Source: Clostridiales bacterium Firm_09 | GTDB lineage: Bacteria; Bacillota; Clostridia; Christensenellales; DTU072 | DNA: 64,000 nt | Assembly (NCBI GenBank): GCA_001604065.1 | Contig: LVAO01000012.1 | Coordinates: 45,571-109,570 of the forward strand | Direction: 5' to 3' | Shown here: one piece after another, positions 21,601 through 38,371 of the stretch | How the letters are laid out: every line of letters begins with the position of its first letter | How positions within the stretch are numbered: position 1 is the stretch's first letter | The notes under the pieces: generated by a model | Databases searched by the model: none | Told to the model about the DNA's origin: nothing | Seen by the model: only the letters and a program-made list of their open reading frames with translations | Program-made: the position numbers and the translations under genes

Positions 21601-22220
21601 TGCTCCAACGGGCCCAGATTGGAAGAAACTTCGCTCAGAATATCATTGATTCTGGTCAGGTTCTCGCGGGTACGCTCCAGCTTCCTTTCTGTTTCCAGCT
21701 TGCGTGCTTTATGGCGGCTGATGCCGGCGGCTTCTTCAAAAATCTGACGTCTTGCCTCGGGTTTTGCAGAGAGTATCTCCTCGATTTTCCCTTGACCGAT
21801 GATGCTGTAGCCCTCTCTTCCGATGCCGCTGTCCCGAAAAAGATCGATGATGTCCCGCCAGCGGCATATATTGCGGTTGATATAATATTCGCTGTCGCCG
21901 CTTCTGTACAGCTTGCGGGTAACGACAACCTCGTCATAATCGACAGGATACCTCCTGTCCTCATTATCAAGGAACAACGAAACCTCGCAATAGGACATGG
22001 ATTTCCGGTTGGTTGTTCCGCCAAAGATGATTTCGGGCATTTTCTTGCAGCGCAGAACAGAGGGGCTTTGTTCCCCCAAAACCCATCTTACCGCATCCGC
22101 CACATTGGATTTTCCGCAGCCGTTGGGACCGACGATGCCGGTGATATTGGATTTGAATTCGATTTCCGTTTTGTCTGCAAACGATTTGAAGCCAAAAAGT
22201 TCTATTTTTTTAAGATTCAT
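18615..22220 (-). CDS. smc: Chromosome partition protein Smc
   Basis: 1201 aa. N-terminal Walker A is GPNGCGKSN. Long coiled coils surround a central hinge. The C-terminal signature is LSGGERALTAIAILFA plus Walker B ILDEIEAALD. Confidence 0.95.
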   Translation of the reverse strand: MNLKKIELFGFKSFADKTEIEFKSNITGIVGPNGCGKSNVADAVRWVLGEQSPSVLRCKKMPEIIFGGTTNRKSMSYCEVSLFLDNEDRRYPVDYDEVVVTRKLYRSGDSEYYINRNICRWRDIIDLFRDSGIGREGYSIIGQGKIEEILSAKPEARRQIFEEAAGISRHKARKLETERKLERTRENLTRINDILSEVSSNLGPLEQEAKDAAKARELKNKLKQIEVRYFLHQCENTSSERDRIRDNLQKAIKEFEAKDAELKALTAEYNTAMADLNNSSIYGNRLRDNVTRLLVDAEKAAGESRLFAERLNNLRREAQNISTETMQLESRLAARQLEKEEKIASYNEKTLILAEKRRTFELLQKNQTELSDSVARQEKEIERTNLLMLDSMDKLSRIDSDKARLEIKRDVLIENIRTSKEALKEARQNLSTAEKERDGYRAELDAINKERNERQNEKALADKNLSECQTDLRAAQKDKNEAEQYLAALEAKIRMVEEFINDYTGYQESVRRLMNEAQNNPSVRSKILGTVGDVITVPQDLQVAVESALGAAIQNIITPNEHDAGALIDLLRQKGYGRATFLPLTTVRANPLAREHQRALDEDGVIGIASDLIRYDNKYSNVMSSLLGKTLIVENRDIAFSVARKYNFGFRIVDINGDIVSQSGSVSGGSNASRSNRILSRESELEDLKKKQISTKKKIDMLAAGILEYEEEQQKLEKAVGIIDARVHKLEVDIGTLENKLYNADSVVEALREDVRRLESGIAEDSARSEELIRLIKESEKFKDDTAAEKTSASDYVNEAKDKLFNDKQNLNALNKRVTEAYVEVSNLQNEIDSINKDLAAIKAEGVMIQQSLLDLKARRMSNEKQLKDMEAQAKENSAGNEESNEEIIRLRKEIDDLEQYKSGLQEKLSRMDTQRTELNKLCGDINERRIREEANLERIDIDLSNLSVRIKEDYDLDYDSAKRFVAENPFDGEFDYAKAQQESLSLRRKIERLGPVNELAEQKFLNEKSRYDDLSRQYDDLVKAEAELKKIIEELTTEMTEKFTKSFAQINLNFQEVFKELFGGGSARLELEKEEGVSVLDAGIEIMAEPPGKKLTRISLMSGGERALTAIAILFAIIKLNPMPFSILDEIEAALDEANASLFAQYLHKFSKSTQFIVVTHRKPTMELADMLYGVTMQEKGISKLVSAKLEDAIKEVKGA

Positions 22221-22284: not shown

Positions 22285-25200
22285 TTATAGCTTTAATCCG
22301 CTTCCGTCCAATATATCGGGAGGAAGATTGGCAAGATTATCGGGGAAGATAAGAAAAGCAAGGTTGCTGCATCCGGCAAAGGCGCGGCTGCCGATGTATT
22401 CTAGAAATTGTGCTTGAGTCAGATCCACACCCAAAAAGGAGCGGCAGTTTTCAAACGCACCCTCGCCGATGGAGATCAGTGCAGAAAGGTCACCGTAAAA
22501 TGCGGCGAGCCCTGCGCATCCGGCAAAAGCATAGTCGCCTATGGCTGTCTGTGCTCTTGCAAACGTAATTGCAGCAATGCCCTCGCAACCGGCAAAAGCA
22601 TATGCCTTCACCTGTGTGCTGACCGTCAGTGTCACATACCTCAGCGAGAAGGGAATTCTGTAATAATTCTGTGTGCCTGCCTGACGATATACGTTGACAT
22701 CGTATCCCGTTGCCGTACCGAAGATAGCGCCGAACTGAGCGGAATCGCCGGTTGCGGACGGCGAAGTGCCCGCGAACGGCAGCGAAATCGATACCAGACT
22801 GCTCATTCCTTCCAGGGCTCCCGCCGCGATTGTTGTCACGGACTGCGGTATCGTCAGCGCGGTGACAGACGCACAATTGTAAAATGCTTTTTGCGGGATT
22901 GCCGACAATCCTTCGTTGATGACGATAGATCGGACGCGCGTCATATTGCAGAAGACACCGTATCCGAGGGAAGAAGCGGAGGTGAGCGTGATGCTTTCCA
23001 ACAGGTCGGGTATGTAATAGATCCGGCTGGATGCTGCGTCAAAATATTGGACCGTCGCGCCCGAAACGCTTGCGTCGACTGTTCCGAAGACATATCCGAA
23101 CAACGCGGTAGCGCCTGTTTCTGTTCTGCTTGTGCCGGCAAAGGGCAAGACCATGGATTTCAGAGAGGAGCAGCCCGAGAAAGCGGCAAACGCGATATTG
23201 GTCACGCTGTCGGGAAGGATGATTGACTCCAGACCCGAACAGTTTGCAAAAGCCAGTCTTCCGATTGTCTGCAGACCGCTGTTGAGCGTGAGCGAGGTAA
23301 TCTCCGCGCAGTTATAGAGCGCGCCATAGCCCAATGCAGAAGAAGAAGTAATGCGCAGCTCATAAAGATGATCGGGAAGAATCGTATAAATAACATTATT
23401 GGATTCCGTATAGATTTGGGCCGTCGTCTGTGTGCCGGGACTGCTTTGGATGCCGAACATGTATCCCAACAATGCATTCTGTCCTGTGGCGGTACGGCTC
23501 ATACCGACAAACGGAGTAGTGAGCGATTCCAGATGCATGCATCCCGCCAGTACCCCTTCGCCCAACGTAGTAACAGAATCCGGAATCACAAAAGTGTTGA
23601 CGGCAGTATTTGCAAAGGCTCTCTCACTGATTGTTGTCAATACGCCGCCTTGGAAGTGAATCGAACTCAGTCCCGTACAGCCCGAAAAAGCATAGGAGCC
23701 GATGGTGCGCAATGTTGAGGGCATATTGACAGAGACCAAAGAGGTCATATTCAAGAAGGCGTTGTTTCCGATGGCTGTGATGCCCTCATTGAGAACAATC
23801 GTTGTGATTCTGGTATTGTTGGCAAAAGCGTTCGCCCCTATTTTGGTCGCCCCGGTCACATTGATTACCTTGAGGCTTGTCGGCGTGCTTCCAAACAGAT
23901 AGGTCAGGCGCATTTCTGCATCCTGTGTTGTGGTTCTGGTTCTTCCGATGAACGGTACGGTGATTGTTTCAAGAGCGTTGCTGCCTTTGAAGACATTCTG
24001 TCCGAACTCCGTCAGGCTGCTGTTGACGACAACAGAAGTCAGCGACGCAAGGTAGGACAGTGCGCCGTATCCAAGCTTGTATGCAGAAGTAACGGTGATA
24101 TTGGTCAGACCAAGCGGAATGACCGCATAATAGTTCTGCTCGGTCACGTTCATATAGACTTGTGCGGTTATGCCGCTTCCGGAAGCTGTTTTGCGCTCGA
24201 ACCAATACCCCAGCAAAAACTGCTCCGGCGTGCTTTCTGAAGGCATCATCCTTGAGCCGATATACGGAACGGTCATTGACTGCAGATTTGTACAGCCGGC
24301 AAAAGCGCCCTGCGCAATCGAGTTGATGCCGTTGTTCAGTGTTACCTGAACCAGTCCCGTCATGCCGGCAAAAGCGGATGATGCAATAACTTGTGCCGCA
24401 GTGATATGGAGTGTCTTGACGTTCCCGATGCCGCTGTCTGATGCGTCTCCATAGAGATACCGCATGATTGCCATATTGCCCGATGCGGCGGCAGCGTTGC
24501 CCGGATAAGGCAGCGTCAGCGTTTCCAGTCTGGTGGTGCCTTCCAAAGAAAGCTGGCCCAGGGATTCTGCCGCAGAATTCACAGAAATCAGCGTCAGTTC
24601 GCCGCAGCCGGAAAACGCACCGTAACCGATATTGACAGCAGAGGTGACATATACATTTTTCAGGGTGGGGGGTATCGCATAGACCGCAGAAGCATTGGGG
24701 GCATATTTTTGTGTGACGCCGGAGGCCGAAGCACCAAAGAAATAGCCCAGCACCGCGTTGGCTCCGCTTGCCGTTCTGGAAGCGCCGATAAACGGCACAG
24801 ACAGACGTACATTCAGAAGCGCACCGGTAAAGGCTCCTGCGCCGATATACGTAACGCTGTCGGGCAGAACGACATCCGCAAGAAGGGAACATCCCTCAAA
24901 AGCATGGCTTCCGACAGTGCTTAACAGACTTCCTGACGCGGCGGAGAACGAACGCAAGCCGCTGTTGAAGAAGGCATAATCCCCTATTGAAAGCACCGAC
25001 GCGGGCAGAACAAGCGTATTGAGAGGCACGCCGCTCAACGCATGATTGCCTATCTGAAGGATTCCCTCGTTAAGGCTTAGCGCAGAGATGAGCGAACCCT
25101 GCAGCGCGTTTGCCGCAAGATAGGTGGCGGATGTCAGAGTCAGCGCCGACACCGACATCGGTATTGCTCCGAACAAGTAGGCAATGTTATCGGTCGCGGG

Positions 25201-28200
25201 ATTCGCCGCACCCGTTTTGTCGGGACCGAGGAACGGCACACTGAGCGAGGTCAGGTTGACGCAGCCGGCAAATACATCCGAACCGATTGAATTAACCGAA
25301 GAAGGAATCCGTGCGGAAGAAAGCGCAAAGCAGTTTCCGAAGGCATTGTTGCCTACTGAAAGCACACCTTCGGGCAAAGATATATTCTGCAGCACTGTGC
25401 ATCCGTAAAATGCATTGCTGCCCACCGAAACAAGCTGTGAGCCAACCTCAAACATGACCGACGTCAGACTTCCGCAGCCTTCAAAGGCATGCGCCCCGAT
25501 ATCGGTGACGCCGGCAGAAATTACAACAGATTCGAATCTGGCTCCGGCAAAGGCATAGTCTCCCACAGAGAGCAGTTTTGCCGCTCCGTTCAGGACAAAT
25601 GCCTGCATGTTGACGCAGCCGTAAAACGCATTATCGCCGACGGCGATGTTTCCGCTCGCGGCAACCGTCTGGAGAGAGGTGACGTTGCTGAAGCTGCCGT
25701 TTGAAATGGAAATCGGACGTTCAAGCGTCACACGGTTAAGCGTAGCGGGAATTTCGCTGTAATAATAGGTCGGTACGCCGGAAGAGAAAACAGCCTGTGC
25801 GACCGTATGGGCGGTGGGCGACTCTTTGAATCCGAAGAGATATCCAAGAAGCCCTTCCTGATGGACCGCGCCGGCGGATTTTCCCACAAAAGGCAGCGTC
25901 AGATCGACAAGGGATGTGCAGTTTGCCAGCAGCCCTTCCGGCATTTCCGTAAGGGTTCCTGCAATCGAGAGCGATGTCAGCGCACACACAGCGTCCAACG
26001 CGTTTTCTGTCAGAATTTCAACTGCGGTCAACCGCAGCACCGCCAGTGCCGAAAGCGTGCCGCCGCTCAGATAACTGATCTTTCCTTCTGCGCCCATAGC
26101 CGATGCGGAGGCACCCGGATAAGGAAGCGTCAGGGAAGAAAGCGATGTGCAGCCGGCGATAAGGTTTTTGCCAAGAGCCGCTCCGTCGTTTACGGTGACT
26201 GTTGTCAGGGATGAGATGCCGGAGAGAACGCCGTATCCGGACGCGCTGTCCAGTGTAACGGCAGTCAATGTGGCGGGAATCCAGGCATAAATGGTCTCCG
26301 TGTCGCTGTATCTTTGCAGAATTTTTCCTGCACCCGGCGTGCTGTCAAAGCCAAAAAGGTATCCTAACAGACCGTCTCTGCCGGTTGCCGAGGCCGAAGC
26401 GCCCGCAAAATGCAGATAAAGCGATTCAATGGGCAATCCGTTCAGAATGCCTTCTTCAACCCAGACCACACCGTCGCCGAACGTAACATTTTTTAAGGCA
26501 TCAAAGGATTCAAAAACGTTCGCGGAGAGAGAAATTTCTTCTCCGGTATTGCGGATAACAAGGGTTTCGATGCCATTGACCGTATTCCCGAAAACATATT
26601 TTATTCTTGCATTTTCGCCGATTGCCTGCACAGAAGCCCCGATGAAGGGAAGTGTCAGCGATTTAAGGTTCGCGCAACCTGCAAAAGCGTCTTTGCCGAT
26701 GACCGACAGCGTATCCGGGAGCACCAGCGAACCGAGATAGCAGTACGAAAAAGCTCCTTCCTCTATCTCCGTAAGGGCGCCGTTTGCCGCAAACGCAACG
26801 GCCGACAAGGAAGAACAGAGAGAAAATGCTTCCTTCCCGATTGTTTTCACATTTGCGGGAATGCCGACGGTCAGGAGTCCGCAGCCCAAGAAAGTATAGT
26901 CCGGGATTTCGGCCAGGGCTGAAAGGCTGTTGAGATTGAAGGCCGTCAGCGCCCCGCAATGCGCGAATACGCCTTCTCCCAGTTCCTTAAACGAAACGGG
27001 CAGGCGCACATCGGCGAGTGCACTGCAGCCAGAAAAAGCGTAATCCCCGATATACACCAATTCCGATGCATCGTTTAATTGAATCGCGGTCAGCGCGGTG
27101 GAAGAAAATGCTCTGCGTCCTATCCGTATCAGGCTTTGCGGCAACGGGAAGGCGGCAAGCGAAACGCAGTTCTCAAACGCATTTTCTTCTATCACCAGAA
27201 GCCTGGGGTTGGCACCGAAGCTTACGGAAACAAGTTCGCCGCAGGATTGAAATGCGTTTTTGCCGATACTCAGAAGACCGGAAGGCAATGTAACGTTTTT
27301 CAAGGAAGGATTGCCCTCAAACGCGTAGGACTCAATCCGCGTGACGCTATCCGGCACTGCAAACGATACTGCAGACAGCGATTGCGGATAAGAAATGAGA
27401 ATCGTTCCGTCAATCGAATACAATATATTGTTCACTACCTTGTAGCCCGTGCGGTATCCGCTCAGAGAAAGCGATGCGACAGGCGTATTGAGGAAGGGAT
27501 TGAGCCCTATCGACCGTACACCGGAAGGAATTTCTATGGATGTCAGCATAGACCCTGCAAAAGCAAAATCCCCGATAGAAGAGAGTGCGCTGGATTCCCC
27601 GCCGAAAGTAACGGTTTTCAGCTGGCTGGAAGCAAATATCTCGTTGCCCAGCGAAACCGTTGTCGCGGGCAATGCAATGGTCTGGATTGCGGTATTTCTG
27701 AAGGCTCCCGCTCCGGCAGAGACAAGCTGCGCGCCGTTTGCAAAGGATACTCCGGCGAGCGACAAACAGCCGGAAAAAGCGTCTTCCTCTATACGCAGCA
27801 AGGAAGCTGGAAACTGCATATACGCCAGCGCGGCGTCCCCCCGGAAAGCACTCTTGCCGATTTCGTTCAGCACACTGCCGGAAGCAAACGTGACGGAGAC
27901 CAACGCAGAGGCGCCCAAAAAGGCTTCTTCTCCGATTGTTTCCACGCTTGCGGGAATATTGATGGCACCGAGCGAGGCGTTGTCTGCAAAAGCCCTTTTC
28001 TCTATCGTCTTCAGCCTGCTGGCCAGCGGGAAAGTTATCGACGAGAAACTTGAAGACAAAAACGCTTCTTCTTCTATCGCCACAACGCTTGCCGGCATTG
28101 AGAGGGAATTGATATCCGCTTCATAGAACGCATATCTGCGCACAACAGTGATGCCTTCGTTCAGCGCAATCGTAATCCCCGACAATCTGCTGAACGCGCC

Positions 28201-31200
28201 GCCGCCCACCTGAACGGCATTGGTAATGATGACCGTTGTAAGCGAATCCGGAATATAGAAGGTCTCTTCTATGCCGACGCAGCATTGTACGACAGCGGTT
28301 GTCGACGCCGTATTGAATCCGCCGAATATATACCCGAACATCGCCTCACGGGTACCCGTTGCCGAAGCATATGCTCCCGCAAACGGCACGCTTACCCTCC
28401 GCAACGAAGTGCAGCCGGCAAGGATGCCCTCGCCGATCAAGGTCAGGCTGTTGGGAAGGGCAATGATTTCAAGTCCGTCATCCCCTCTGAAAGCATAATT
28501 GCCTATCGTTGTCAGGCTGCTGTTGTAAAGGCTGATGTCGATCGTCCTCAGGGCGGTTATGCCGGCAAAAGCATAGTCTCCTATCGATACGACGCTTTCG
28601 GGAAGGACAAGCGAAGCCAACGCCGTTTCAAAAAACGCATAATCCCCTATCGTACGAGTCCTGCCAAGCGAAACGGCGTGCAGACCCGTGCACTCTCCGA
28701 AGGCTTCGCGTCCGATGGTCAGAACAGAGTTGGGTACAACGAAGGAAGCGAGAGCGGCATTGCATGCAAAGGCGGCTTCCCCGATTGCTTCAATTCCGTC
28801 GTTGATGATGATCTGAGCAATGGACGTATTTGAAAACGCGCCATAAGGAATGATGTCTGCGCCGGTCAGCTCCACGCGCAAAATACCCGCGGGAATATTG
28901 TAGACTGCGGATTCTGTCAGAGAATAATTTTGTTCGATGCCGGATGTTCCTTGTCCGAACAGGTAACCGAATACAGCGTCCGGTGTGCCCGCCGCGTTTC
29001 TGGATGATCCCACAAAAGGAATCACCAATGTCTTCAGATTGTCACATCCGCAGAGGATTTCTTCTCCGATGGATGCGATGTTGGCGTTCAGCGCGATTTC
29101 CGTCAAGGAAGACATGTTGTAGAATGCGCCGCGGCGGATGTTCACGGCGTCGGTAATCTCTATGCTTTTTAGTTGCGGGATTGCATAGGTGCCTTGCCGG
29201 CCCTCGCCGAACACCTGTGTAATGCCTGCCGAATCGTTGCCAAACAGATAGCCGAGAATTGCTTCTTCCCCTTCCGCTGTCCTGGACGCGCCGACAAAGG
29301 GCAATACGAAAGACTCCAGCGCGCCGCATCCCTTAAAGACGTTCTCTTCTGCCGTGAGAAGCGCCTTGCCGATTTCGACATTGACCAGGGCAGCCATATT
29401 GGAAAAGGCGCCGTAGGGAAGGTTCTTTGCGTTGGTGAGGATCACTTCCTGCAGCCCCGCAGGAATGAAATAATAGGCGCTCTTGCCCGGCGCATAATAT
29501 TGCAGAGTATATACGCCTTCTGCGGGCTGTGTGCGGGAATATCCGAACAAATACCCCAGTACGGCGTCCTCGGTGCCGGATACGTAAGCGGCCGACCCGG
29601 TAAAAGGAAGCGTCAGCGAAACAAGGGAAGTGCAGCCGTAAAGCAGATTGCTGGAAACTCTGGCGAGTTTTGCCGAAAGCTTGATGATCGTGAGACCGGA
29701 GCATCCGGCAAAAGCAGCGTTGCCGATGGCAAGCACGCTGTCAGGAACCTGAACATTCGACAAATGACTGCAGTCCGCAAACGCATAATATCCTATTTCT
29801 GTCAGCGACGAGGGCAACGTCAGCACGCTGAGTGACGAGCAGCCCTTAAACGCGGCGTTGCCGATGCTGGTCAGACTGTTGAAACCCGCAAGTCTTGCGC
29901 CGCTGGTTCCATTGACAAAGGCAAGTGCGGCGCAGCCTTCGAAGGCACTGCCGGCAATCGAAATGATTTTGGAAGGCAGTGTCAGCGAAATCAGGTTTTC
30001 GCAACCGAAAAACAATTTTTCGGCTATATTGCTCACACTTGTGATATTAAAATCGATGACTTGCGTCAGCGCGGCGCAGTTCCGGAAGGCTCCCGCTTCT
30101 GCGGTTGTCAAAGTATTGGTAAAGCTGATCCTTTGCAGTCTGCTGTACGCGAACGCTTCCTGAGCAATGGTTTTCACAGTCGCCGGCACGGTAAATTCGG
30201 ATGCCGTAGAACCCGCGGGATACTGCAGCAGCAGCGTACCGAATTTATCATACAGCACGCCGTTGGCATCCGAAGAATACTTTGAATTCAGACCGTCCAC
30301 GCTGATGTACATCAGATTGGTGCAGCCCGCAAATGCGCCTCTTTCGATAACCGTAATATTTTCATAAATCGTTACGGATTGCAAATGATTGTTGCCGGCA
30401 AAGGCATATTTGCCGATGGAGGTGACGGGAGTGCCGTCCGACATTGTCTTCGGGATAATCAGGCTTTCTGCAGTCCCGGTATATCTTGTAATGATGGCTT
30501 TGTTGTTCACAACATAATAATTAAAGTTGTTTTCATAAAAAATATCATTGTAGCCGACATTCCAATAAATAGCGGGATCATCCCATCTGTCCGTCCAGAC
30601 TTCCGGCTTGGAGGCTCCTTTTGCATAAATGGCAAGATAGCCGCAGCCTTCAAAGGCATTCCTGTCCAGTTTTGTAATTCCGGAAGGCAATGAAATCGTA
30701 TACATACCGGTTTTATATTGGAAAGCTTTGCCTATCGATACGGTTTCGGGTATATCGAGTCTTTCCGGTACGACCATATTGTCGCTCAATGTTCTGGTGT
30801 ATTCCAAAATATATGCCGCGTCGGTCATTCCTACGTCGCCGTATTCGAGGACCACATAATCGTATCCGTCCCTGCTGAACGCCGCGGACTCATAGGTTGC
30901 GGCGGCGGGGCAATTATGGAACGCATAGTTTCCGACATATGTCAGCGAAGCGGGCAGAACGAGATTCTCCAGTGCGATGCAGCCGTTAAAAGCGTCGTTG
31001 CCGATGCCGGTAAGCGAACGCGCAAACAGCACCTGGGTCAGACCGGAGCAGCCGAAAAAGGCTTTTTCGTCAATATAATTTGTGATTTCCAGCGTCACGG
31101 AATTGATTCCGGTACAGCCCGAAAAGGCTCCGTAAGGCACTTCATAGGTATCGGTCAATGTCACTTCGGCAAGCGATGCGGGAAGGTAATACCGGACAAC

Positions 31201-33615
31201 GTTGACCGAATCATACCACTGATAAGCGGGCACACTGCCGGAGAAACCGGTATTGCCGAAAATATATCCGAACAAGCCTTCGGAAGTTCCTGCCTTGGCT
31301 TTGGAGCTGCCTACAAAAGGTAACGTGAGCGACGAGAGCATGGCGCATCCGTCAAAGGCATTGCTGCCTATCCATGTGACGTTCTTTGAGAGAGTCATCT
31401 CCGTGACAGAGGTATTGGCAAAAGCATAGCAGCCGATGGAACGTACGGAATTTCCCAGCACGATAGAGGTCAGCGATACACAGTTGCTGAAGGCGTAGTT
31501 GCCCAGTGTATTCACTCCGGAAGGAACCGTGAAGCTCGTAGTATTTCTTCCTTGGGGAAATTGAATCAGGCTGGTCCCGCTTTTGTTGTAAAGCGCGCCG
31601 TCCGTACCCGCCGCATACAGCATATTCTCTTCATCGACAATGATGTCTGTCAGCGACTCACAGCCTCTGAAGGGAGCGTTGCCGATAACGCCGACGCCCT
31701 TGGGCACCGTAAAGCTTACAAGCGAAGCGCAATTCAAAAAGGTCTCGGCTTCAATATTCTGGATCGACGGCGGCAAGTGGATTGCCGTGAGGTTGCGGCA
31801 ATTTTCAAAAGAATTGCTTCCCAGTCTGCGGATGCCGTCATGCAGCGCTACCATTGTCACGGACTGATTGTTTTTGAATGCGTTGTCCGAAATGGATATT
31901 ACGGGTCGACCATTGTAGGAAGAAGGTATATATACCTCCGCCTCCACGCCACTGTATCCGGTAACGCTGTACGTGTTGTCCTGCAGAAGAGTGTATTTGA
32001 GCCCCTGCGTGCTTTTTTCTGTATAGGAAGCAAGCAAGGTGAACTTCCCGTTCACAGCCTCATCATAGTCAATCGTCCAGCGTTGGGGCGCAAACGGAAC
32101 ACCCTCATGCGTCCAGCCTGCGAAATCATAGGCAAACCGTACGGCTCTGATGTTGCTCAGACGATACAGAAAATCCTCGTCATACGCTACTTCAATATAT
32201 TCCGCTTCTGAAGGTATCCCTTCGATAGAGGCGTCTTCTGCTTCCGCAGAAAAATACAATTTATATGTTTTGGGAATCAGATATCCTTTGACGCTGATAT
32301 CGGAATCCGGCATATTTGCCGGCAGCCCAGACCATCCCGAAAACGTGTAGCCCGTTTTCTCCGGTGCGTCGGGAATCTCTTCCTCAAGAATCGGGGATTG
32401 ATAGGTATACGTCAACCTGGCGTATTCCTGCCCGTCCAAAATAAAGATCACATAAAAAACATCGGTGAAGAAACCATAAATTTCTATATTCTCATTGGGC
32501 ATTGTCACGGGAGCGCTTCCGCTTTCTGCGTTCAGCCAGCCGGAAAAACGGGCTCCCGGTCTGACGGGCGCAGGAAGGTAAGAAATGGGTGTGCCGTAGG
32601 CGGCAGTCCGCACGTCATACATCACACCGTCCACAAAATAAGTAATGGAATATTCCAGCGGGGTAAGACTGCCGTACACATTCAGGTTCTGCGCCGGCAT
32701 CGTTTCCGGAAGGACGGAGCCGTCATTCAGTTTCCAGCCGGAGAAGGTGTAGCCTTCTATGCTGAGAGGCGCCAATACCCCTTCCAGCGGCGCACCGTAC
32801 GGATAGGTCAGCACAACGGGTGTATGATCGGGTGCATAGGGACTCCCGTTCAGATAATAGACAAGCTGATAATTGTTGACGGTCCATTTTGCATATAAAC
32901 GGAGATTGCCCGTAGTTCCTGCAGGAATCGCGGTCACCCTTGTCCTGTATTCTTCTTCCGCATACCAGCCGTCAAAGGTATAGCCGGTTCTTGTTGCGTT
33001 CTGAAGTGTGATGCGTCCTGTTTCAACATTATAAACGGCAGGATTTGAGGTGATGCCTCCGCCCAGATTGTATACAATACTGTAATTTATCAGGCGCCAT
33101 CTGGCGGTCAGCGTGACATCTTCTTCCGGCCAGAAAGGAAATTCTGTTTTTACGGTATCATTTTCGCTCTTGTACCAGCCTAAAAACTGGTATCCTGCAC
33201 GCGAGGTGACAGGCTCTGTCTCAATGACCTCAACATCCTCAAAAGTCGGCACTTCGCTGCCGCCGTCGGCAAAAAAAATCACATCCGGTTTTTCTTCGGG
33301 TTCCGGCGGCTGCGTCTCTTTTTCCCATTTTGCATAAACCGTCTTGTTTTCGTAAATACCGGTCTGAAGAATGAGCGTCAAAGAAACAGGCTGGTTCCAG
33401 ACATCCTTATCAAAATACCATCCCGCAAACAAATATCCTTCTTTGGAGGGCTCCGGCGGAAACGCAAGTTCTGAAGTACCATCCAGAACGATGACCGTAT
33501 TTTCTCCTCCTCCCTGCGTGTCAAACGTCAGAGTGTACACCTCGGTCGTGTCGTTGCAGGCCGCAAGACCAACGGCCAGACAAACAGCCATAAGGATAAA
33601 CAGGAGTTTTTTCAT
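22285..33615 (-). CDS. Giant (3,776 aa) surface lipoprotein: N-terminal Listeria-Bacteroides (Flg_new-like) repeats followed by >3,200 aa of BspA-type leucine-rich repeats
   Basis: A single uninterrupted ORF with GGAGG RBS. The signal MKKLLFILMAVCLAVGLAAC carries lipobox LAAC. There are seven G(Y)xF.GW modules. After that the BspA/LRR_5 signature (IP.SVt.IG..AF.gC..L.si) recurs throughout. There is no C-terminal TM or LPXTG. Confidence 0.88.
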   Translation of the reverse strand: MKKLLFILMAVCLAVGLAACNDTTEVYTLTFDTQGGGENTVIVLDGTSELAFPPEPSKEGYLFAGWYFDKDVWNQPVSLTLILQTGIYENKTVYAKWEKETQPPEPEEKPDVIFFADGGSEVPTFEDVEVIETEPVTSRAGYQFLGWYKSENDTVKTEFPFWPEEDVTLTARWRLINYSIVYNLGGGITSNPAVYNVETGRITLQNATRTGYTFDGWYAEEEYRTRVTAIPAGTTGNLRLYAKWTVNNYQLVYYLNGSPYAPDHTPVVLTYPYGAPLEGVLAPLSIEGYTFSGWKLNDGSVLPETMPAQNLNVYGSLTPLEYSITYFVDGVMYDVRTAAYGTPISYLPAPVRPGARFSGWLNAESGSAPVTMPNENIEIYGFFTDVFYVIFILDGQEYARLTYTYQSPILEEEIPDAPEKTGYTFSGWSGLPANMPDSDISVKGYLIPKTYKLYFSAEAEDASIEGIPSEAEYIEVAYDEDFLYRLSNIRAVRFAYDFAGWTHEGVPFAPQRWTIDYDEAVNGKFTLLASYTEKSTQGLKYTLLQDNTYSVTGYSGVEAEVYIPSSYNGRPVISISDNAFKNNQSVTMVALHDGIRRLGSNSFENCRNLTAIHLPPSIQNIEAETFLNCASLVSFTVPKGVGVIGNAPFRGCESLTDIIVDEENMLYAAGTDGALYNKSGTSLIQFPQGRNTTSFTVPSGVNTLGNYAFSNCVSLTSIVLGNSVRSIGCYAFANTSVTEMTLSKNVTWIGSNAFDGCAMLSSLTLPFVGSSKAKAGTSEGLFGYIFGNTGFSGSVPAYQWYDSVNVVRYYLPASLAEVTLTDTYEVPYGAFSGCTGINSVTLEITNYIDEKAFFGCSGLTQVLFARSLTGIGNDAFNGCIALENLVLPASLTYVGNYAFHNCPAAATYESAAFSRDGYDYVVLEYGDVGMTDAAYILEYTRTLSDNMVVPERLDIPETVSIGKAFQYKTGMYTISLPSGITKLDRNAFEGCGYLAIYAKGASKPEVWTDRWDDPAIYWNVGYNDIFYENNFNYYVVNNKAIITRYTGTAESLIIPKTMSDGTPVTSIGKYAFAGNNHLQSVTIYENITVIERGAFAGCTNLMYISVDGLNSKYSSDANGVLYDKFGTLLLQYPAGSTASEFTVPATVKTIAQEAFAYSRLQRISFTNTLTTAEAGAFRNCAALTQVIDFNITSVSNIAEKLFFGCENLISLTLPSKIISIAGSAFEGCAALAFVNGTSGARLAGFNSLTSIGNAAFKGCSSLSVLTLPSSLTEIGYYAFADCSHLSNVQVPDSVLAIGNAAFAGCSGLTIIKLSAKLARVSSNLLYGCTSLVSLTLPFTGSAAYVSGTEDAVLGYLFGYSRTQPAEGVYTLQYYAPGKSAYYFIPAGLQEVILTNAKNLPYGAFSNMAALVNVEIGKALLTAEENVFKGCGALESFVLPFVGASRTAEGEEAILGYLFGNDSAGITQVFGEGRQGTYAIPQLKSIEITDAVNIRRGAFYNMSSLTEIALNANIASIGEEILCGCDNLKTLVIPFVGSSRNAAGTPDAVFGYLFGQGTSGIEQNYSLTESAVYNIPAGILRVELTGADIIPYGAFSNTSIAQIIINDGIEAIGEAAFACNAALASFVVPNSVLTIGREAFGECTGLHAVSLGRTRTIGDYAFFETALASLVLPESVVSIGDYAFAGITALRTIDISLYNSSLTTIGNYAFRGDDGLEIIALPNSLTLIGEGILAGCTSLRRVSVPFAGAYASATGTREAMFGYIFGGFNTASTTAVVQCCVGIEETFYIPDSLTTVIITNAVQVGGGAFSRLSGITIALNEGITVVRRYAFYEADINSLSMPASVVAIEEEAFLSSSFSSITFPLASRLKTIEKRAFADNASLGAINIPASVETIGEEAFLGASALVSVTFASGSVLNEIGKSAFRGDAALAYMQFPASLLRIEEDAFSGCLSLAGVSFANGAQLVSAGAGAFRNTAIQTIALPATTVSLGNEIFASSQLKTVTFGGESSALSSIGDFAFAGSMLTSIEIPSGVRSIGLNPFLNTPVASLSLSGYRTGYKVVNNILYSIDGTILISYPQSLSAVSFAVPDSVTRIESYAFEGNPSLKNVTLPSGLLSIGKNAFQSCGELVSVSFGANPRLLVIEENAFENCVSLAAFPLPQSLIRIGRRAFSSTALTAIQLNDASELVYIGDYAFSGCSALADVRLPVSFKELGEGVFAHCGALTAFNLNSLSALAEIPDYTFLGCGLLTVGIPANVKTIGKEAFSLCSSLSAVAFAANGALTEIEEGAFSYCYLGSLVLPDTLSVIGKDAFAGCANLKSLTLPFIGASVQAIGENARIKYVFGNTVNGIETLVIRNTGEEISLSANVFESFDALKNVTFGDGVVWVEEGILNGLPIESLYLHFAGASASATGRDGLLGYLFGFDSTPGAGKILQRYSDTETIYAWIPATLTAVTLDSASGYGVLSGISSLTTVTVNDGAALGKNLIAGCTSLSSLTLPYPGASASAMGAEGKISYLSGGTLSALAVLRLTAVEILTENALDAVCALTSLSIAGTLTEMPEGLLANCTSLVDLTLPFVGKSAGAVHQEGLLGYLFGFKESPTAHTVAQAVFSSGVPTYYYSEIPATLNRVTLERPISISNGSFSNVTSLQTVAASGNIAVGDNAFYGCVNMQAFVLNGAAKLLSVGDYAFAGARFESVVISAGVTDIGAHAFEGCGSLTSVMFEVGSQLVSVGSNAFYGCTVLQNISLPEGVLSVGNNAFGNCFALSSARIPSSVNSIGSDVFAGCVNLTSLSVPFLGPDKTGAANPATDNIAYLFGAIPMSVSALTLTSATYLAANALQGSLISALSLNEGILQIGNHALSGVPLNTLVLPASVLSIGDYAFFNSGLRSFSAASGSLLSTVGSHAFEGCSLLADVVLPDSVTYIGAGAFTGALLNVRLSVPFIGASRTASGANAVLGYFFGASASGVTQKYAPNASAVYAIPPTLKNVYVTSAVNIGYGAFSGCGELTLISVNSAAESLGQLSLEGTTRLETLTLPYPGNAAAASGNMAIMRYLYGDASDSGIGNVKTLHITAAQVIASSAFAGMTGLVQVTLNNGINSIAQGAFAGCTNLQSMTVPYIGSRMMPSESTPEQFLLGYWFERKTASGSGITAQVYMNVTEQNYYAVIPLGLTNITVTSAYKLGYGALSYLASLTSVVVNSSLTEFGQNVFKGSNALETITVPFIGRTRTTTQDAEMRLTYLFGSTPTSLKVINVTGATKIGANAFANNTRITTIVLNEGITAIGNNAFLNMTSLVSVNMPSTLRTIGSYAFSGCTGLSSIHFQGGVLTTISERAFANTAVNTFVIPDSVTTLGEGVLAGCMHLESLTTPFVGMSRTATGQNALLGYMFGIQSSPGTQTTAQIYTESNNVIYTILPDHLYELRITSSSALGYGALYNCAEITSLTLNSGLQTIGRLAFANCSGLESIILPDSVTNIAFAAFSGCSSLKSMVLPFAGTSRTETGATALFGYVFGTVDASVSGATVQYFDAASSRIYYIPDLLESITLTSASSLGYGVFCNMTRVRSIVINEGLSAIPQKAFYNCASVTALTIPQSVTTIAAGALEGMSSLVSISLPFAGTSPSATGDSAQFGAIFGTATGYDVNVYRQAGTQNYYRIPFSLRYVTLTVSTQVKAYAFAGCEGIAAITFARAQTAIGDYAFAGCAGLAAFYGDLSALISIGEGAFENCRSFLGVDLTQAQFLEYIGSRAFAGCSNLAFLIFPDNLANLPPDILDGSGLKL
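22690..31330 (-). repeat. Coding periodic super-module (17 copies, ~178-aa period) inside the LRR region
   Basis: The motif L.(L/V)PF(V/I/A)G.S....G.....LGY(L/I)FG...(Q.Y)...YY.IP..L..V.LT.A..I.YGAFS recurs 17 times. The first copy is LTLPFVGSSKAKAGTSEGLFGYIFG (P766, nt 31320). The last is ISLPFAGTSPSATGDSAQFGAIFG (nt ~22780). Confidence 0.75.
32017..33540 (-). repeat. Coding tandem repeats: seven Flg_new-like ~70-80-aa modules (aa ~26-533 of the giant LRR protein)
   Basis: Anchors seen: YLFAGWYF, YQFLGWYK, YTFDGWYA, YTFSGWKL, ARFSGWLN, YTFSGWSG, YDFAGWTH. Several end in ..Y(A/G)KW. Confidence 0.7.
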
Positions 33616-33714: not shown

Positions 33715-33894
33715 TACGCAAATGCAAATAGAATCCCGTAAAGCTATTTGACTGCCCCAACAACACCAACCGGATTCGACGCAAAAAAATCTGTGTTTTT
33801 TGACGATACGACGCCCTTTATCGTCGTGCGGTTGTTTGACACGCAACAGAAAAAATGGTATACTTATGTTAATTTCGGAAAATCGTTCCGCACA

Positions 33895-36018
33895 ATGGAA
33901 TATAATATGGAAAAATACAAAAAATTTACCTCAAAGAAAGCAAAGAAACGCCTTCCCCGCCTTGCATTGGGCATTCTGACCCCCATTTTATGTCTTATTC
34001 TCATTCTCGTTTGCTGGGTCGCGGGAGATCTTATAATCAACATGCAAATTGAAGCCGCGCCGCGCCGAGTCTCCGATCCTTCCTTATATGACGGCACAGA
34101 ACTTCTGCAGATGGTATGGCTCTATGGGAACAAAGGGCAGACCAATGAGACCTTCTCTCTTAAAATGGAAGATATCACCGCAGAGAGAGTATTCAATGCG
34201 CTGCCCGGGTACATCCGATATCTGGAAGAAAGGCTTGACTGTGCCGATTTCAGGGCTGTTTTCTTGTTGAAGCTTTTATTTGACGGCGGCGAAGATCTTG
34301 ATGCCCTCTCTCCTCTTATACGTCAAAAAATTGGGGCGGCTTTGACCGGCTTCAAGTTCTGGATTACTTCGCCGGGCGCAGACAGCATGTGCTATTATTC
34401 AGAGAACCATCAGATTAATTTTGCCGTCATCGAATATCTGACAGGCCAAGCATTTCCCGATGCGGTATTTGCCGTCGACGGCAAAACCGGCGCCGAGCAT
34501 GTCCGGATTGCGGCAAAACGGATAGAAGACTGGCTCGACATGCGCTTCCTTTACGGTTTTTCGGAGTGCTTTTCGGCCAATTATTATGTGGTGGACATTG
34601 CCGCGCTCACCATGCTGCTTGCTTATGGCAACCGTGCGGACGGCATTCTTATGGAGCGGGCAAAAATGGCGCTTGATCTGATCTTTGCTGATTTTGCGCT
34701 CCAGATGTATGATTACACCTTTGTCAGTCCTTCCGGGCGCGCATACCAATACAACAATCTGTGCTGGGAAACCTCCGACGCCGCGCGAATTGTCGACCAT
34801 GTCTGGAATCTGAACAGAATCCAGGACAATCGTTTCAACTATTATCTTATCACTTCGGTGGTCAACAATAATCTTGACCTTCTCGCATCCGGAAGCACGC
34901 CGTATTACAAAATTCCCGAAGTGATTCTGGAACTCGGCAGGAGCAACGAAAAAATCGTCCGCACCTCTACGGGTCTGAACCTTTCCGATCTGGATGCGCA
35001 CGGACTTCTGGGGCAAAGCGACCGCCAAATGATGTTCCAGTTGGGCATGGGCGCTCTCTCCAATCCGGAAATCATCGAAAACACTTTGGATTACATCAAC
35101 AAATACAATCTGCTCACCAATCAGTTTTTAACAAATTTCAAATATTTCAACATCAAAGCCATACGTTATTCCGGCCTGATGCCCGTTATGTCAAAATGGG
35201 TGAATCCCTATATCAACGGCTTTGCCAACCAGGAATACAATGTTTATACATACATAAAGAATTCCTACAAGCTTTCCACCAACCAGGCATATTTTCCGGG
35301 TTCCTTCGGTTCGCAACAGCTCCAATCGGTCGCACTTCTTCCGGGAGGGATCCCCATATACACAACCCATCCCGTTGACACCATGACCGGCACGCCCGGC
35401 TATTGGGCGGGCTACGGTGTCGCGCCCCACGCCGTACAGGAGCAGAACATTGCCCTTCTTATGTATAAACTTCCCAAAAACATTGCTTTGCTCTCAGATA
35501 AGCCTCTTCCTTACACTCATACCTACTTCCCCGAGGCGGAGTTTGATGAAGTAATGATTGACGGAAGCCGCGCTTTTGCCAGACGAGGAGATACTTATAT
35601 CGCCCTTTTGGGAAGCGGGACATTGCGCTACGCCGACCGAGACGAAGCCCGCCTGGAGGGTTTGCCGTATAAAACCGCCGGGCGCTTCGATCTGATTCAG
35701 GAAGGAAAAGAACAGGCATGGGTCTATGAGCTTTCGGATGCCTCCGAGGGCAGCTTTTCGGATTTCATACAGAGAATACGCGGCAACACCCTGCGCTTTG
35801 ACGGAGACTCTGTACGCTATATCAGCAATGCAAAAACGTATTCCGTCGAATACAAAGGTTCCTTTGCCATAAACGGTCAGACCATCCGGACGGATTACGC
35901 CCGCTACGAAAGCGACTTTGTCCATGCCGCCAAATATCAGACGACCTTTGAATATGCCTTCCATGGCAAGAGTCTTGTTCTGGACTATCCGAACGCCAAA
36001 CGCACCGTTCGCGATTAA
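33895..36018 (+). CDS. Membrane-anchored hypothetical protein, possible alpha/alpha-toroid plus beta-sandwich polysaccharide-lyase-like (heparinase II/III-like) fold
   Basis: The ORF track starts at TTG 33748. I prefer ATG 33895 (or 33907), just before the basic stretch and TM (KKAKKRLPRLALGILTPILCLILILVCWVAG). The helical N-half carries a YYSENHQ (Asn-His) motif and the C-third is beta-rich. The family call is from memory and weak. Confidence 0.6.
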   Translation: MEYNMEKYKKFTSKKAKKRLPRLALGILTPILCLILILVCWVAGDLIINMQIEAAPRRVSDPSLYDGTELLQMVWLYGNKGQTNETFSLKMEDITAERVFNALPGYIRYLEERLDCADFRAVFLLKLLFDGGEDLDALSPLIRQKIGAALTGFKFWITSPGADSMCYYSENHQINFAVIEYLTGQAFPDAVFAVDGKTGAEHVRIAAKRIEDWLDMRFLYGFSECFSANYYVVDIAALTMLLAYGNRADGILMERAKMALDLIFADFALQMYDYTFVSPSGRAYQYNNLCWETSDAARIVDHVWNLNRIQDNRFNYYLITSVVNNNLDLLASGSTPYYKIPEVILELGRSNEKIVRTSTGLNLSDLDAHGLLGQSDRQMMFQLGMGALSNPEIIENTLDYINKYNLLTNQFLTNFKYFNIKAIRYSGLMPVMSKWVNPYINGFANQEYNVYTYIKNSYKLSTNQAYFPGSFGSQQLQSVALLPGGIPIYTTHPVDTMTGTPGYWAGYGVAPHAVQEQNIALLMYKLPKNIALLSDKPLPYTHTYFPEAEFDEVMIDGSRAFARRGDTYIALLGSGTLRYADRDEARLEGLPYKTAGRFDLIQEGKEQAWVYELSDASEGSFSDFIQRIRGNTLRFDGDSVRYISNAKTYSVEYKGSFAINGQTIRTDYARYESDFVHAAKYQTTFEYAFHGKSLVLDYPNAKRTVRD

Positions 36019-38063: not shown

Positions 38064-38371
38064 AAACTCTCCTTTGCCCATATGATGGGAAATGCGTGGT
38101 TTTTTATTGGCCGATGATTACGTTTGCGGACTGCCGATTCTTGGTCCGGCATCTATGGAATACGGATAATGCTAAAAACTTGCATGGCTCAAAAAGCATC
38201 CGCTGCAGACAATTCTGTCCGATGAAAAGATATATAAAATCGCGGACAGGTTGTCTCATTTTGCGAAATCAAAGACACCTTGCCGCAAAAACCGGTCTGC
38301 CGATCCTCCCTTTCAATACGATTGCGGAACATTTTGCATGACGTCTTTTGCCCAATGAAACAATCTTTCCT

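What the first reader, a model, noticed from the sequence alone, without database searches (positions are those of the whole stretch)
22690..31330. A 17-fold periodic PF(V/I)G...GYLFG...YY-IP module interleaved with the LRRs
About every 178 aa the LRR run is punctuated by a conserved block of ~60-70 aa. Its pattern is L.LPF(V/I/A)G.S..A.G.....LGYLFG, then a short variable segment often ending Q.Y, then YY.IP..L..V.LT.A..I.YGAFS.

I counted 17 instances. Examples are LTLPFVGSSKAKAGTSEGLFGYIFG, LTLPFTGSAAYVSGTEDAVLGYLFG, FVLPFVGASRTAEGEEAILGYLFG, LVIPFVGSSRNAAGTPDAVFGYLFG, LTLPFVGKSAGAVHQEGLLGYLFG, LSVPFIGASRTASGANAVLGYFFG, LTTPFVGMSRTATGQNALLGYMFG, MVLPFAGTSRTETGATALFGYVFG and ISLPFAGTSPSATGDSAQFGAIFG.

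This is a higher-order repeat (LRR block plus insert) that I do not recognise as a described domain. It could be a structural spacer, or a ligand-binding loop displayed 17 times.
Basis: seen in the sequence. Interest (0 to 1): 0.6.

Follow-up and report, generated by a model that had tools for sequence, protein, structure and literature searches.

The report
Helix-hairpin insert in bacterial LRR adhesin
A giant surface protein of an uncultured gut Clostridia bacterium carries 17 copies of a conserved insert (a short helix, usually followed by a beta-hairpin) looped out of its leucine-rich-repeat coil; the insert is real, occurs in thousands of related proteins, and has no model in Pfam or NCBIfam and no solved structure, but it decorates a known fold rather than forming a new kind of system.

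Summary
**Observation: mostly right.** One ORF (window 22285-33615, minus strand, 3776 aa) carries exactly 17 blocks, against 0.08 expected in shuffles. They are not periodic: spacings run from 77 to 579 aa, and 178 aa is only the mean. There are two types: 12 long blocks (64-74 aa) and 5 short blocks (47-51 aa) that lack the Q.Y...YY.IP half.

**Anatomy.** AlphaFold2 models (pLDDT 97.7 and 95.0) show:
- Every block starts with an enlarged LRR coil of about 33 residues: PF.G, a loop, then a short helix (L.GY.FG).
- Long blocks add a 22-residue beta-hairpin before the next coil.
- That next coil carries a matching YGAF signature.

Coevolution analysis of 700 natural copies puts the two strands flanking the insert next to each other in register. 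The solenoid is therefore continuous and the insert is a loop-out.

**Databases.**
- Pfam LRR_5 alignments stop at each block.
- Pfam and NCBIfam have no model for it.
- No PDB chain contains it.
- No paper in the searched library quotes the motif.

**Distribution.** The block profile hits 4041 protein clusters. It occurs in 52 of 80 genomes of the same family but in 1 of 400 sampled across the phylum. A 49%-identical orthologue keeps all 17 sites and their types.

**Verdict.** An undescribed variant of a known kind. Its function (brace or binding ridge) is untested.

The parts
22285..33615 (-). Gene for the 3776-aa protein: signal peptide with lipobox, Flg_new repeats (about aa 22-540), then about 3200 aa of BspA/TpLRR-type LRR solenoid carrying the 17 blocks
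   Evidence: LRR_5 scores 1316.7 bits in 24 stretches; Flg_new has 5 stretches. The N-terminus reads MKKLLFILMAVCLAVGLAAC.
31123..31332 (-). Long block 1 (aa 762-831)
   Evidence: 88.1 bits
29404..29619 (-). Long block 2 (aa 1333-1404)
   Evidence: 80.4 bits
29122..29313 (-). Long block 3 (aa 1435-1498)
   Evidence: 73.1 bits
28834..29031 (-). Long block 4 (aa 1529-1594)
   Evidence: 78.0 bits
28192..28398 (-). Long block 5 (aa 1740-1808)
   Evidence: 80.1 bits
26512..26661 (-). Short block (aa 2319-2368): PF.G loop and helix coil only, no hairpin
   Evidence: It matches profile positions 1-27 only.
26224..26421 (-). Long block 6 (aa 2399-2464); starts LHFAG instead of LPF.G
   Evidence: 80.4 bits
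25996..26136 (-). Short block (aa 2494-2540)
25690..25905 (-). Long block 7 (aa 2571-2642)
   Evidence: 79.9 bits
25102..25248 (-). Short block (aa 2790-2838)
24613..24807 (-). Long block 8 (aa 2937-3001)
   Evidence: 82.0 bits
24370..24522 (-). Short block (aa 3032-3082)
24058..24279 (-). Long block 9 (aa 3113-3186)
   Evidence: 81.3 bits
23824..23967 (-). Short block (aa 3217-3264). It was modelled within window:23686-24057:- as a 33-residue coil with loop and helix, and no hairpin.
   Evidence: pLDDT 95.0
23317..23526 (-). Long block 10 (aa 3364-3433)
   Evidence: 90.2 bits
22951..23157 (-). Long block 11 (aa 3487-3555), modelled within window:22813-23316:-. Strand SMVL, loop PFAGTSRTET, helices GATA and FGYVF, hairpin ATVQY/SRIYY, then IPDL and strand SITL.
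   Evidence: pLDDT 97.7, pTM 0.91
22594..22791 (-). Long block 12 (aa 3609-3674)
   Evidence: 71.2 bits

Best explanation
The blocks are a conserved variant of the BspA/TpLRR coil that has no model of its own in Pfam or NCBIfam. They are best described as an 'island' or loop-out on a continuous solenoid.

**Element 1 (all 17 blocks).** An enlarged coil of 32-33 residues. The usual 'P.SV..IG..AF' half is replaced by PF.G, a 10-14-residue loop and a short helix (L.GY.FG).

**Element 2 (12 blocks).** A 22-residue excursion inserted where an ordinary coil has 'xxCxxL'. It consists of an 11-residue linker and a beta-hairpin, with a Q.Y strand, a variable turn and a YY.IP strand.

**Element 3.** The following coil is specialised (L..V.LT.A..I.YGAF).

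**Packing.** The concave beta-sheet runs straight through, because the strands before and after the insert are neighbours in register. The hairpin folds back onto the block's own helix and onto the AF/C corner of the next coil.

**Inferred role.** The most likely role is architectural. The blocks would act as aromatic-rich braces that locally stiffen and reshape a solenoid of about 130 coils. They would also build a raised Tyr/Ser/Thr-rich ridge along one edge of a lipid-anchored surface adhesin, and that ridge may add to ligand contact.

**Shown versus inferred.**
- Shown: the sequence anatomy, secondary structure, coevolution contacts, conservation and distribution.
- Inferred: the brace or ridge role and any binding.
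For: **Count, types and coordinates.**

**Structure prediction.**
- The AF2 model of aa 3434-3601 has pLDDT 97.7 and pTM 0.91. LRR strands lie at model residues 8-10, 31-33, 54-57, 108-111, 130-132 and 153-155, helices at 68-71 and 73-77, and the hairpin at 87-91/97-101.
- The AF2 model of a short block has pLDDT 95.0, with strands at 31-34 and 64-67 and helices between them, and no hairpin.

**Coevolution.** Mean-field DCA was run on 700 unique natural blocks (effective number 615).
- Pairs spaced i,i+54 rank high: 54-108 (z 10.4, rank 2), 57-111 (z 6.2), 56-110, 58-112. These are the pairs expected if the flanking strands are neighbours.
- Pairs expected for a beta-meander (54-87 to 57-90, 97-111, 99-109) are at background.
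- Hairpin pairs 87-99 and 89-97 are coupled.
- Packing pairs are 77-103, 61-103, 92-119, 88-127, 71-118, 70-93 and 69-98.
- Ordinary-coil pairs (107-129, 108-130, 110-132) come up as a positive control.

**YGAF signature.** Gly before A/V-F in the following coil occurs in 11 of 12 long blocks and 0 of 5 short ones (sequences).

**Orthologue.** The 3788-aa orthologue (49% identity) keeps all 17 sites and their long or short type. Conservation by segment is LLGY.FG 86%, YY..IP 76%, SLTLPF.G 65%, ordinary LRR 49%. The invariant residues are Gly, Pro, aromatic residues and one Gln, which is a structural signature.

**LRR_5 alignments break at each block.**
Against: - The model's coordinates could not be inspected. 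The 3-D packing rests on secondary structure plus DCA, and several packing couplings are only z 3-4.
- No functional data exist.
- Across 700 copies the variable linker and hairpin part is 20% Tyr, 16% Ser and 15% Thr, and the hairpin length ranges from 4 to 37 residues. Such composition also fits a binding surface.
- The linker after FG is the least conserved segment between orthologues (29%, against 36% for polar positions of ordinary coils). That would suit an adaptive surface as well as an unconstrained loop.
Confidence: 0.6

Rival explanations
1. The hairpins are ligand-binding fingers. Each has a conserved base (Q.Y / YY.IP) that presents a variable Tyr/Ser/Thr-rich tip. The tips are displayed many times along the solenoid for multivalent adhesion to glycans or proteins. 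This would work like the irregular-LRR insertions of Toll-like receptors, the variable LRRCT insert of lamprey VLRs or the BRI1 island (these comparisons are from my own knowledge).
For: - The variable part is enriched in Tyr (20% against 6.4% in the whole super-module), Ser and Thr. Hairpin length varies from 4 to 37 residues, with modes at 11 and 16.
- The scaffold residues are invariant while the linker and turn change between orthologues.
- The protein is a predicted surface lipoprotein with adhesin-type domains.
Against: - The hairpin turn is no more variable between orthologues than ordinary exposed LRR positions (37% overall and 42% at polar positions, against 36% at polar positions of ordinary coils).
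- DCA places the hairpin against the body of the solenoid, on the helix and the next coil, rather than projecting free.
- Five blocks do without the hairpin.
- In this protein the tips are not especially Tyr/Ser-rich.
Confidence: 0.25
2. The block is only a run of degenerate ordinary LRR_5 repeats with no distinct structural feature.
For: - Its first five residues (SLTLP) and last 17 (L..V.LT.A..I.YGAF) do follow the LRR_5 coil pattern.
- Foldseek still finds TpLRR-type solenoids as the best matches.
Against: - Excised blocks match no Pfam model at E<=10, and LRR_5 alignments stop at the block.
- AF2 gives a helix and a hairpin that ordinary coils lack, at pLDDT above 95.
- The unit takes 54 residues from strand to strand, against 23 for an ordinary coil.
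- The best TM-score normalised to the query is 0.67 or less.
Confidence: 0.03
3. The block is an independent domain or hinge that cuts the protein into about 18 separate LRR domains.
For: - Blocks are irregularly spaced.
- Pfam reports 24 separate LRR_5 stretches.
Against: - The strongest coevolution signals join the strand before the insert to the strand after it, in register (54-108, 57-111, 56-110, 58-112).
- The AF2 model has pTM 0.91 across the block.
Confidence: 0.05

Closest known systems
BspA-type / TpLRR leucine-rich repeats (Pfam LRR_5, PF13306). Solved examples: T. pallidum TpLRR 6mlx, Bacteroides ovatus 4fs7, Faecalibacterium prausnitzii 4gt6, Eubacterium ventriosum 4h09, pneumococcal PcpA 4cp6.
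   Same: - The host protein is a clear member (1316.7 bits, 24 stretches).
- The coils flanking each block follow the 23-residue consensus.
- These structures are the best Foldseek matches to the model (E 2e-5, probability 1.0).
   Different: - None of these structures or the Pfam model contains the PF.G loop and helix or the Q.Y/YY.IP hairpin.
- A block profile finds no LRR_5 chain in the PDB even at E<=10.
- TM-scores normalised to the query are 0.3-0.56 for these entries.
- LRR_5 alignments end at the block.
Non-LRR island regions ('loop-outs') of plant LRR receptor kinases and receptor-like proteins, such as the BRI1 island (reviewed in PMC4030839)
   Same: - A non-LRR segment interrupts an LRR array.
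- The solenoid continues on the other side of it.
- The segment forms a small helix and beta-strand element packed on the solenoid. (The BRI1 fold is from my own knowledge.)
   Different: - Plant proteins have one island per LRR domain, or two in RPK2, each around 60-70 residues in the examples reviewed (PMC4030839).
- Here a shorter insert (31 extra residues) recurs up to 17 times in one protein, in the TpLRR class, in bacteria.
- No sequence relationship was found or expected, and ligand binding is unknown here.
LRR super-motifs (the STT super-repeat of small leucine-rich proteoglycans and TLR7-9; the 57-residue double repeat of ribonuclease inhibitor), as cited in PMC4030839
   Same: Coils of different type are combined in a recurring unit. 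The last three super-modules here repeat every 122-123 aa.
   Different: Those super-motifs are strictly tandem and made of LRR coils only. Here the spacing is irregular (77-579 aa) and the unit contains non-LRR secondary structure.
Large LRR surface adhesins named by NCBIfam: HupY/LrrG (NF047961) and Mycoplasma mobile Gli349 (NF045861)
   Same: There are partial repeat-level matches (387.7 and 216.6 bits). They share the general design of an exported protein with long LRR arrays.
   Different: The scores are far below the curated cut-offs (1250 and 1750 bits), so this protein is not a member of either family. Neither model covers the excised blocks.

Membership tests
Pfam LRR_5 (PF13306), BspA/TpLRR class | Whole-protein score above the gathering threshold (27.7 bits) | tested here: met
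   1316.7 bits in 24 stretches
Pfam LRR_5 (PF13306), BspA/TpLRR class | The segment itself aligns to the repeat model as ordinary coils of about 23 residues | tested here: not met
   - Ten excised window blocks and five further excised sequences (four homologue blocks and the window's insert core) have no LRR_5 match at E<=10.
- In context the LRR_5 stretch ends at the block's Pro (residues 1-58 of the 168-aa construct).
Pfam LRR_5 (PF13306), BspA/TpLRR class | Solenoid fold superimposable on solved TpLRR-type structures | tested here: inconclusive
   Foldseek gives probability 1.0 and E 2e-5 to 6mlx, 4fs7 and 4gt6, but TMq is only 0.3-0.56 at rmsd 4-14 A. The ordinary coils fit and the insert does not.
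LRR island region / loop-out (LRR@IR sensu PMC4030839) | A non-LRR segment intervenes within an LRR array | tested here: met
   There are 54 residues from strand to strand instead of 23, with helices and a hairpin between them. No LRR model matches the segment.
LRR island region / loop-out (LRR@IR sensu PMC4030839) | The LRR stack continues across the island | tested here: met
   DCA couplings 54-108 (z 10.4), 57-111 (z 6.2), 56-110 and 58-112. AF2 pTM is 0.91.
LRR island region / loop-out (LRR@IR sensu PMC4030839) | The island takes part in ligand binding (as in BRI1) | not testable with these tools
   No ligand is known. There are only composition and conservation hints.
LRR super-motif (strict tandem higher-order repeat) | Regular period along the array | tested here: not met
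   Spacings are 77-579 aa. Only aa 3311-3674 show a 122-123-aa period.
Bacterial surface lipoprotein | N-terminal signal peptide ending in a lipobox Cys | tested here: inconclusive
   The sequence reads MKKLLFILMAVCLAVGLAAC|N, and the orthologue has ...IVGIAAC|N. This fits the lipobox pattern by eye, but no predictor was run.
NCBIfam adhesin_HupY (NF047961) / glide_Gli349 (NF045861) | Score above the curated cut-off | tested here: not met
   387.7 bits against a cut-off of 1250, and 216.6 against 1750

The most novel reading that the evidence does not exclude
The helix-hairpin module is a dedicated recognition element of gut Clostridia. A conserved aromatic base presents a variable-length Tyr/Ser/Thr-rich beta-finger, repeated up to 17 times along one edge of an LRR solenoid. 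This would give a multivalent, paratope-like binding ridge that is separate from the classical concave LRR surface, and so a second, modular binding mode for bacterial LRR adhesins.
Probability: 0.2. Interest if true: 0.6.

Novelty: new variant of a known kind. Interest (0 to 1): 0.35.

Why it matters
- **Context.** BspA-type LRR proteins are among the largest and most numerous surface proteins of gut anaerobes, and almost none has a known ligand.
- **What this adds.** The module is sharply conserved, confidently predicted and widespread (at least 4041 clusters at 50% identity), yet current LRR_5 models skip it.
- **Annotation.** Giving it its own model would improve annotation: Pfam now reports broken LRR stretches at each block.
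- **Comparative use.** It would mark a Clostridia-centred subgroup of these adhesins. In the samples searched it was found in 52 of 80 same-family genomes but in 1 of 400 across the phylum.
- **Experiments.** It gives structural biologists a compact target, a 168-residue unit modelled at pLDDT 97.7, for asking whether long solenoids use braces or carry a second binding edge.
- **Limits.** It does not change what is known about how LRR proteins work in general.

Tried and rejected
2. **The search for related loci with the generic LRR_5 homologue P0085.** It returned 78 LRR_5 loci, but only 3 carried the block. This was useless for building an alignment, but it shows that most LRR_5 genes lack the module.
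3. **Colinear alignment of the 466-aa C-terminal piece with homologues.** Only 2 of 120 homologues aligned colinearly, so I modelled a single super-module instead.
4. **First short-query homologue search.** It gave few block-bearing fragments. An alignment query (A3) worked better.
5. **Model coordinates.** I looked for them in the script box and none are provided. The beta-meander alternative was tested by DCA instead and rejected.
6. **PDB profile search.** The only hit was a viral spike protein (9r1q; whole-sequence E 0.012, best domain 10.9 bits, i-Evalue 3.8). I judged it chance and did not follow it.
7. **P0122 as an orthologue.** The best representative hit turned out to be the same protein with a start 8 residues shorter. 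A real orthologue came from the genome search.
8. **Hypervariability of the hairpin tip between orthologues.** It is no more variable than ordinary exposed positions.
9. **Literature.** Searches for BspA/TpLRR, LRR_5/PF13306, the motif strings and island regions found no description of this module.
10. **Earlier scan notes.** None holds this module.
Full report
**The gene**

The finding lies inside one open reading frame, window 22285-33615 on the minus strand, which encodes 3776 aa. The protein starts with MKKLLFILMAVCLAVGLAAC, a signal peptide that ends in a lipobox-like Cys. Five Listeria-Bacteroides (Flg_new) repeats follow, up to about aa 540.

The rest is BspA/TpLRR-type leucine-rich repeat. 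Pfam LRR_5 scores 1316.7 bits in 24 stretches. NCBIfam gives only sub-threshold repeat-level matches to the adhesins HupY/LrrG and Gli349.

The neighbours are housekeeping genes: plsX and rnc upstream, and smc, ftsY and ffh downstream. The other giant ORF of the window (45886-57126) is an unrelated MBG/YDG fibre and has no block. Earlier notes of this scan place the genome in uncultured Christensenellales-like Clostridia. The assembly is 1.44 Mb and 79% complete.

**Checking the observation**

All nine example strings are present. A relaxed motif finds 17 sites, at aa 766, 1337, 1439, 1533, 1744, 2323, 2402, 2498, 2575, 2794, 2941, 3036, 3117, 3221, 3368, 3491 and 3613. In 2000 shuffles the mean count was 0.08 and the maximum 2. 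The count of 17 is therefore right and far beyond chance.

The 'period' is not real. Spacings run from 77 to 579 aa, and 177.9 aa is only their mean. The blocks also fall into two types:
- Twelve long blocks (64-74 aa) carry the whole pattern. Their consensus is SLxLPFxGxSxxATGxxALLGYxFG, 11 variable residues, QxY, 7 variable residues, then YxIPxxLxxVTLTxAxxxGYGAF.
- Five short blocks (47-51 aa, at aa 2319, 2494, 2790, 3032 and 3217) have only the PF.G...Y.FG part and then go straight into the next coil.

**Is it just LRR_5?**

No.
- Ten excised window blocks, four homologue blocks and the window's insert core match no Pfam family at E<=10 apart from noise. The same holds for NCBIfam.
- In context the LRR_5 alignment covers residues 1-58 of the 168-aa construct and stops at the block's proline. 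Longer pieces behave the same way.
- A profile of the 12 long blocks finds no LRR_5 chain among 177,635 distinct PDB sequences. The only hit is a weak one to a viral spike protein, which I take as chance.

**Structure**

I modelled two pieces with AlphaFold2.

*Long block: aa 3434-3601 (two ordinary coils, a long block, two ordinary coils).* The alignment had 39 rows: 11 paralogous segments of this protein and 27 short homologues. The model has mean pLDDT 97.7 and pTM 0.91.
- Ordinary coils show the concave-face strand every 22-23 residues, at model residues 8-10, 31-33, 130-132 and 153-155.
- In the block, strand 54-57 (SMVL) is followed by the loop PFAGTSRTET.
- Two short helices follow at 68-71 and 73-77 (GATA, FGYVF).
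- A linker leads into a beta-hairpin at 87-91/97-101 (ATVQY/SRIYY).
- IPDL then leads into the next concave strand at 108-111 (SITL).

*Short block: aa 3187-3310.* The model has pLDDT 95.0. It shows the same loop and helices between strands 31-34 and 64-67, and no hairpin.

The anatomy is therefore:
- a 32-33-residue coil, which is the 23-residue coil plus about 9 residues, in all 17 blocks;
- a 22-residue hairpin excursion in 12 of them;
- a specialised following coil.

Foldseek finds TpLRR (6mlx), 4fs7, 4gt6, 4h09 and PcpA (4cp6) as the nearest solved structures. TM-scores normalised to the query are only 0.3-0.67 over all hits. No solved structure reproduces the unit.

**Does the insert break the solenoid?**

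I then ran mean-field direct-coupling analysis on them (effective number 615, 95 columns).

| Prediction | Pairs | Result |
|---|---|---|
| Flanking strands are in-register neighbours (i,i+54) | 54-108, 57-111, 56-110, 58-112 | z 10.4 (rank 2 of 4186), z 6.2 (rank 6), rank 19, rank 38 |
| Hairpin strands lie in the concave sheet (meander) | 54-87 to 57-90, 97-111, 99-109 | background (z 0.2 or less) |
| Hairpin is antiparallel | 87-99, 89-97 | z 4.4, z 3.3 |
| Ordinary-coil contacts (positive control) | 107-129, 108-130, 110-132 | z 5.2, z 3.2, z 3.9 |

Further couplings describe the packing:
- The YY.IP end is tied to PF.G and GY.F (77-103, 61-103, 58-103).
- The hairpin is tied to the block's helix (70-93, 69-98) and to the next coil (92-119, 88-127, 71-118).

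The last point fits a pattern in this protein. The coil after a long block has Gly before A/V-F in 11 of 12 cases and Tyr before that Gly in 8 of 12. None of the five short blocks has either.

The solenoid is therefore continuous and the insert is a loop-out. Its hairpin appears to fold back along the lateral or convex corner. The placement of the hairpin is an inference from couplings of z 3-4.

**Conservation**

A same-genus genome holds a 3788-aa orthologue that is 49% identical. It has a block at each of the 17 corresponding sites, with the same long or short type at each. The arrangement is therefore old and site-specific, not a recent array expansion.

Identity between the orthologues, by segment:

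| Segment | Identity |
|---|---|
| LLGY.FG | 86% |
| YY..IP | 76% |
| SLTLPF.G | 65% |
| Q.Y | 64% |
| Long blocks overall | 54% |
| Ordinary LRR | 49% (36% at polar positions) |
| Short blocks overall | 42% |
| Hairpin turn | 37% |
| Linker after FG | 29% |

The invariant residues are Gly, Pro, aromatic residues and one Gln, which is the signature of a structural scaffold. The turn is no more variable than ordinary exposed positions. The linker is slightly more variable.

**Distribution**

- The block profile hits 4041 clusters at 50% identity at E<=1e-3 among 1.84 billion representatives. Of these, 1763 are at E<=1e-10 and 315 at E<=1e-30. This protein (as P0122) has the most matched stretches, 17, among the 150 listed.
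- Of the 120 best LRR_5 homologues of the C-terminal piece, 87 also carry the block, in long (about 70-76 aa) and short (about 55 aa) forms.
- Of 78 LRR_5 loci found with a generic LRR_5 query, only 3 carry it.
- In whole genomes it is present in 52 of 80 other genomes of the same family (9 of 17 genera), but in 1 of 400 genomes drawn evenly from the phylum. These are samples, not proof of absence.
- Nearly all named block-bearing hits are Clostridia: Christensenellales, Lachnospiraceae and Ruminococcaceae. The one exception is a MAG labelled Corallococcus sp. The Bacteroidota LRR_5 hits I checked lack the block.
- The same genome has a second giant LRR frame, on contig C25, with at least five blocks.
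- Across the 700 copies the linker is fixed at 11 residues in 542. The hairpin part is 11 residues in 278 and 16 in 111, with a range of 4-37. The variable part is 20% Tyr, 16% Ser and 15% Thr.

**Interpretation**

The block is an island or loop-out of the TpLRR coil that none of the libraries searched here describes. The shown facts are its anatomy, its continuity with the solenoid, its scaffold-type conservation and its wide but lineage-biased distribution.

Its role is inferred. I favour an architectural one: aromatic braces and a raised ridge on a solenoid of about 130 coils in a lipid-anchored adhesin. Possible participation in binding comes second. The Tyr/Ser/Thr-rich, length-variable hairpins keep a binding-finger reading alive at about 0.2-0.25. 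Two other readings are contradicted by the data: 'ordinary LRR' and 'separate hinge domain'.

**Comparison with what is known**

- The host protein is a member of LRR_5, but the block itself fails the model.
- In concept it matches the non-LRR island regions reviewed for plant LRR receptors (PMC4030839). It differs in size, class, kingdom and copy number.
- It is not a strict super-motif.
- Literature searches found no description of it.
- InterPro, CDD, AlphaFold DB and subscription journals could not be searched.

**Verdict**

The block is a new variant of a known kind, and the interest is moderate to low (0.35).

Noticed in passing
Own genome G000, contig C25, about 142575-147572 (outside the window): A second giant LRR open frame (3068 aa) in the same 1.44-Mb genome carries at least five copies of the same block (E 3.6e-22 to 1.5e-7). 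The same-genus genome G002 has a counterpart on contig C40 (3064-aa frame).
   Followed up: partly
window 30436-30876 (aa 914-1060). Also aa about 660-700, 1116-1140 and 2060-2085 of the same protein.: The LRR array has other irregularities. One is a non-LRR stretch of about 150 aa, rich in Tyr, Asn and Trp, that ends in a cap-like 'YYVVNNKAIITRYTG...LIIP' motif. The other is a 'G.LY.K.G..L.QYP.....F.VP' motif that occurs three times. Together they suggest several LRR domain restarts, and they explain the two long block-free gaps (571 and 579 aa).
   Followed up: no
window 33748-36018 (+): A 756-aa ORF lies divergent from the giant gene and has no Pfam match at E<=0.001. An earlier first-reader note suggests a lyase-like membrane protein. 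I did not examine it.
   Followed up: no
window 18615-22220 and 36370-38081: The giant LRR gene and the divergent ORF sit between rnc/plsX and smc/ftsY/ffh, which are adjacent in many Firmicutes.
   Followed up: partly
Homologues P0002-P0417 (700 block copies): The hairpin segment (Q to IP) has two preferred lengths, 11 residues (278 copies) and 16 residues (111 copies). The preceding linker is almost always 11 residues (542 of 700). The longer class is typically 'QYYYGSSTSSTTS.TYYIP'.
   Followed up: partly
PDB 9r1q chain A, residues 320-380: The block profile gives a weak match (whole-sequence E 0.012; best domain 10.9 bits) to a viral spike protein segment '[25 protein letters not shown]...'. 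I judged it chance and did not pursue it.
   Followed up: no
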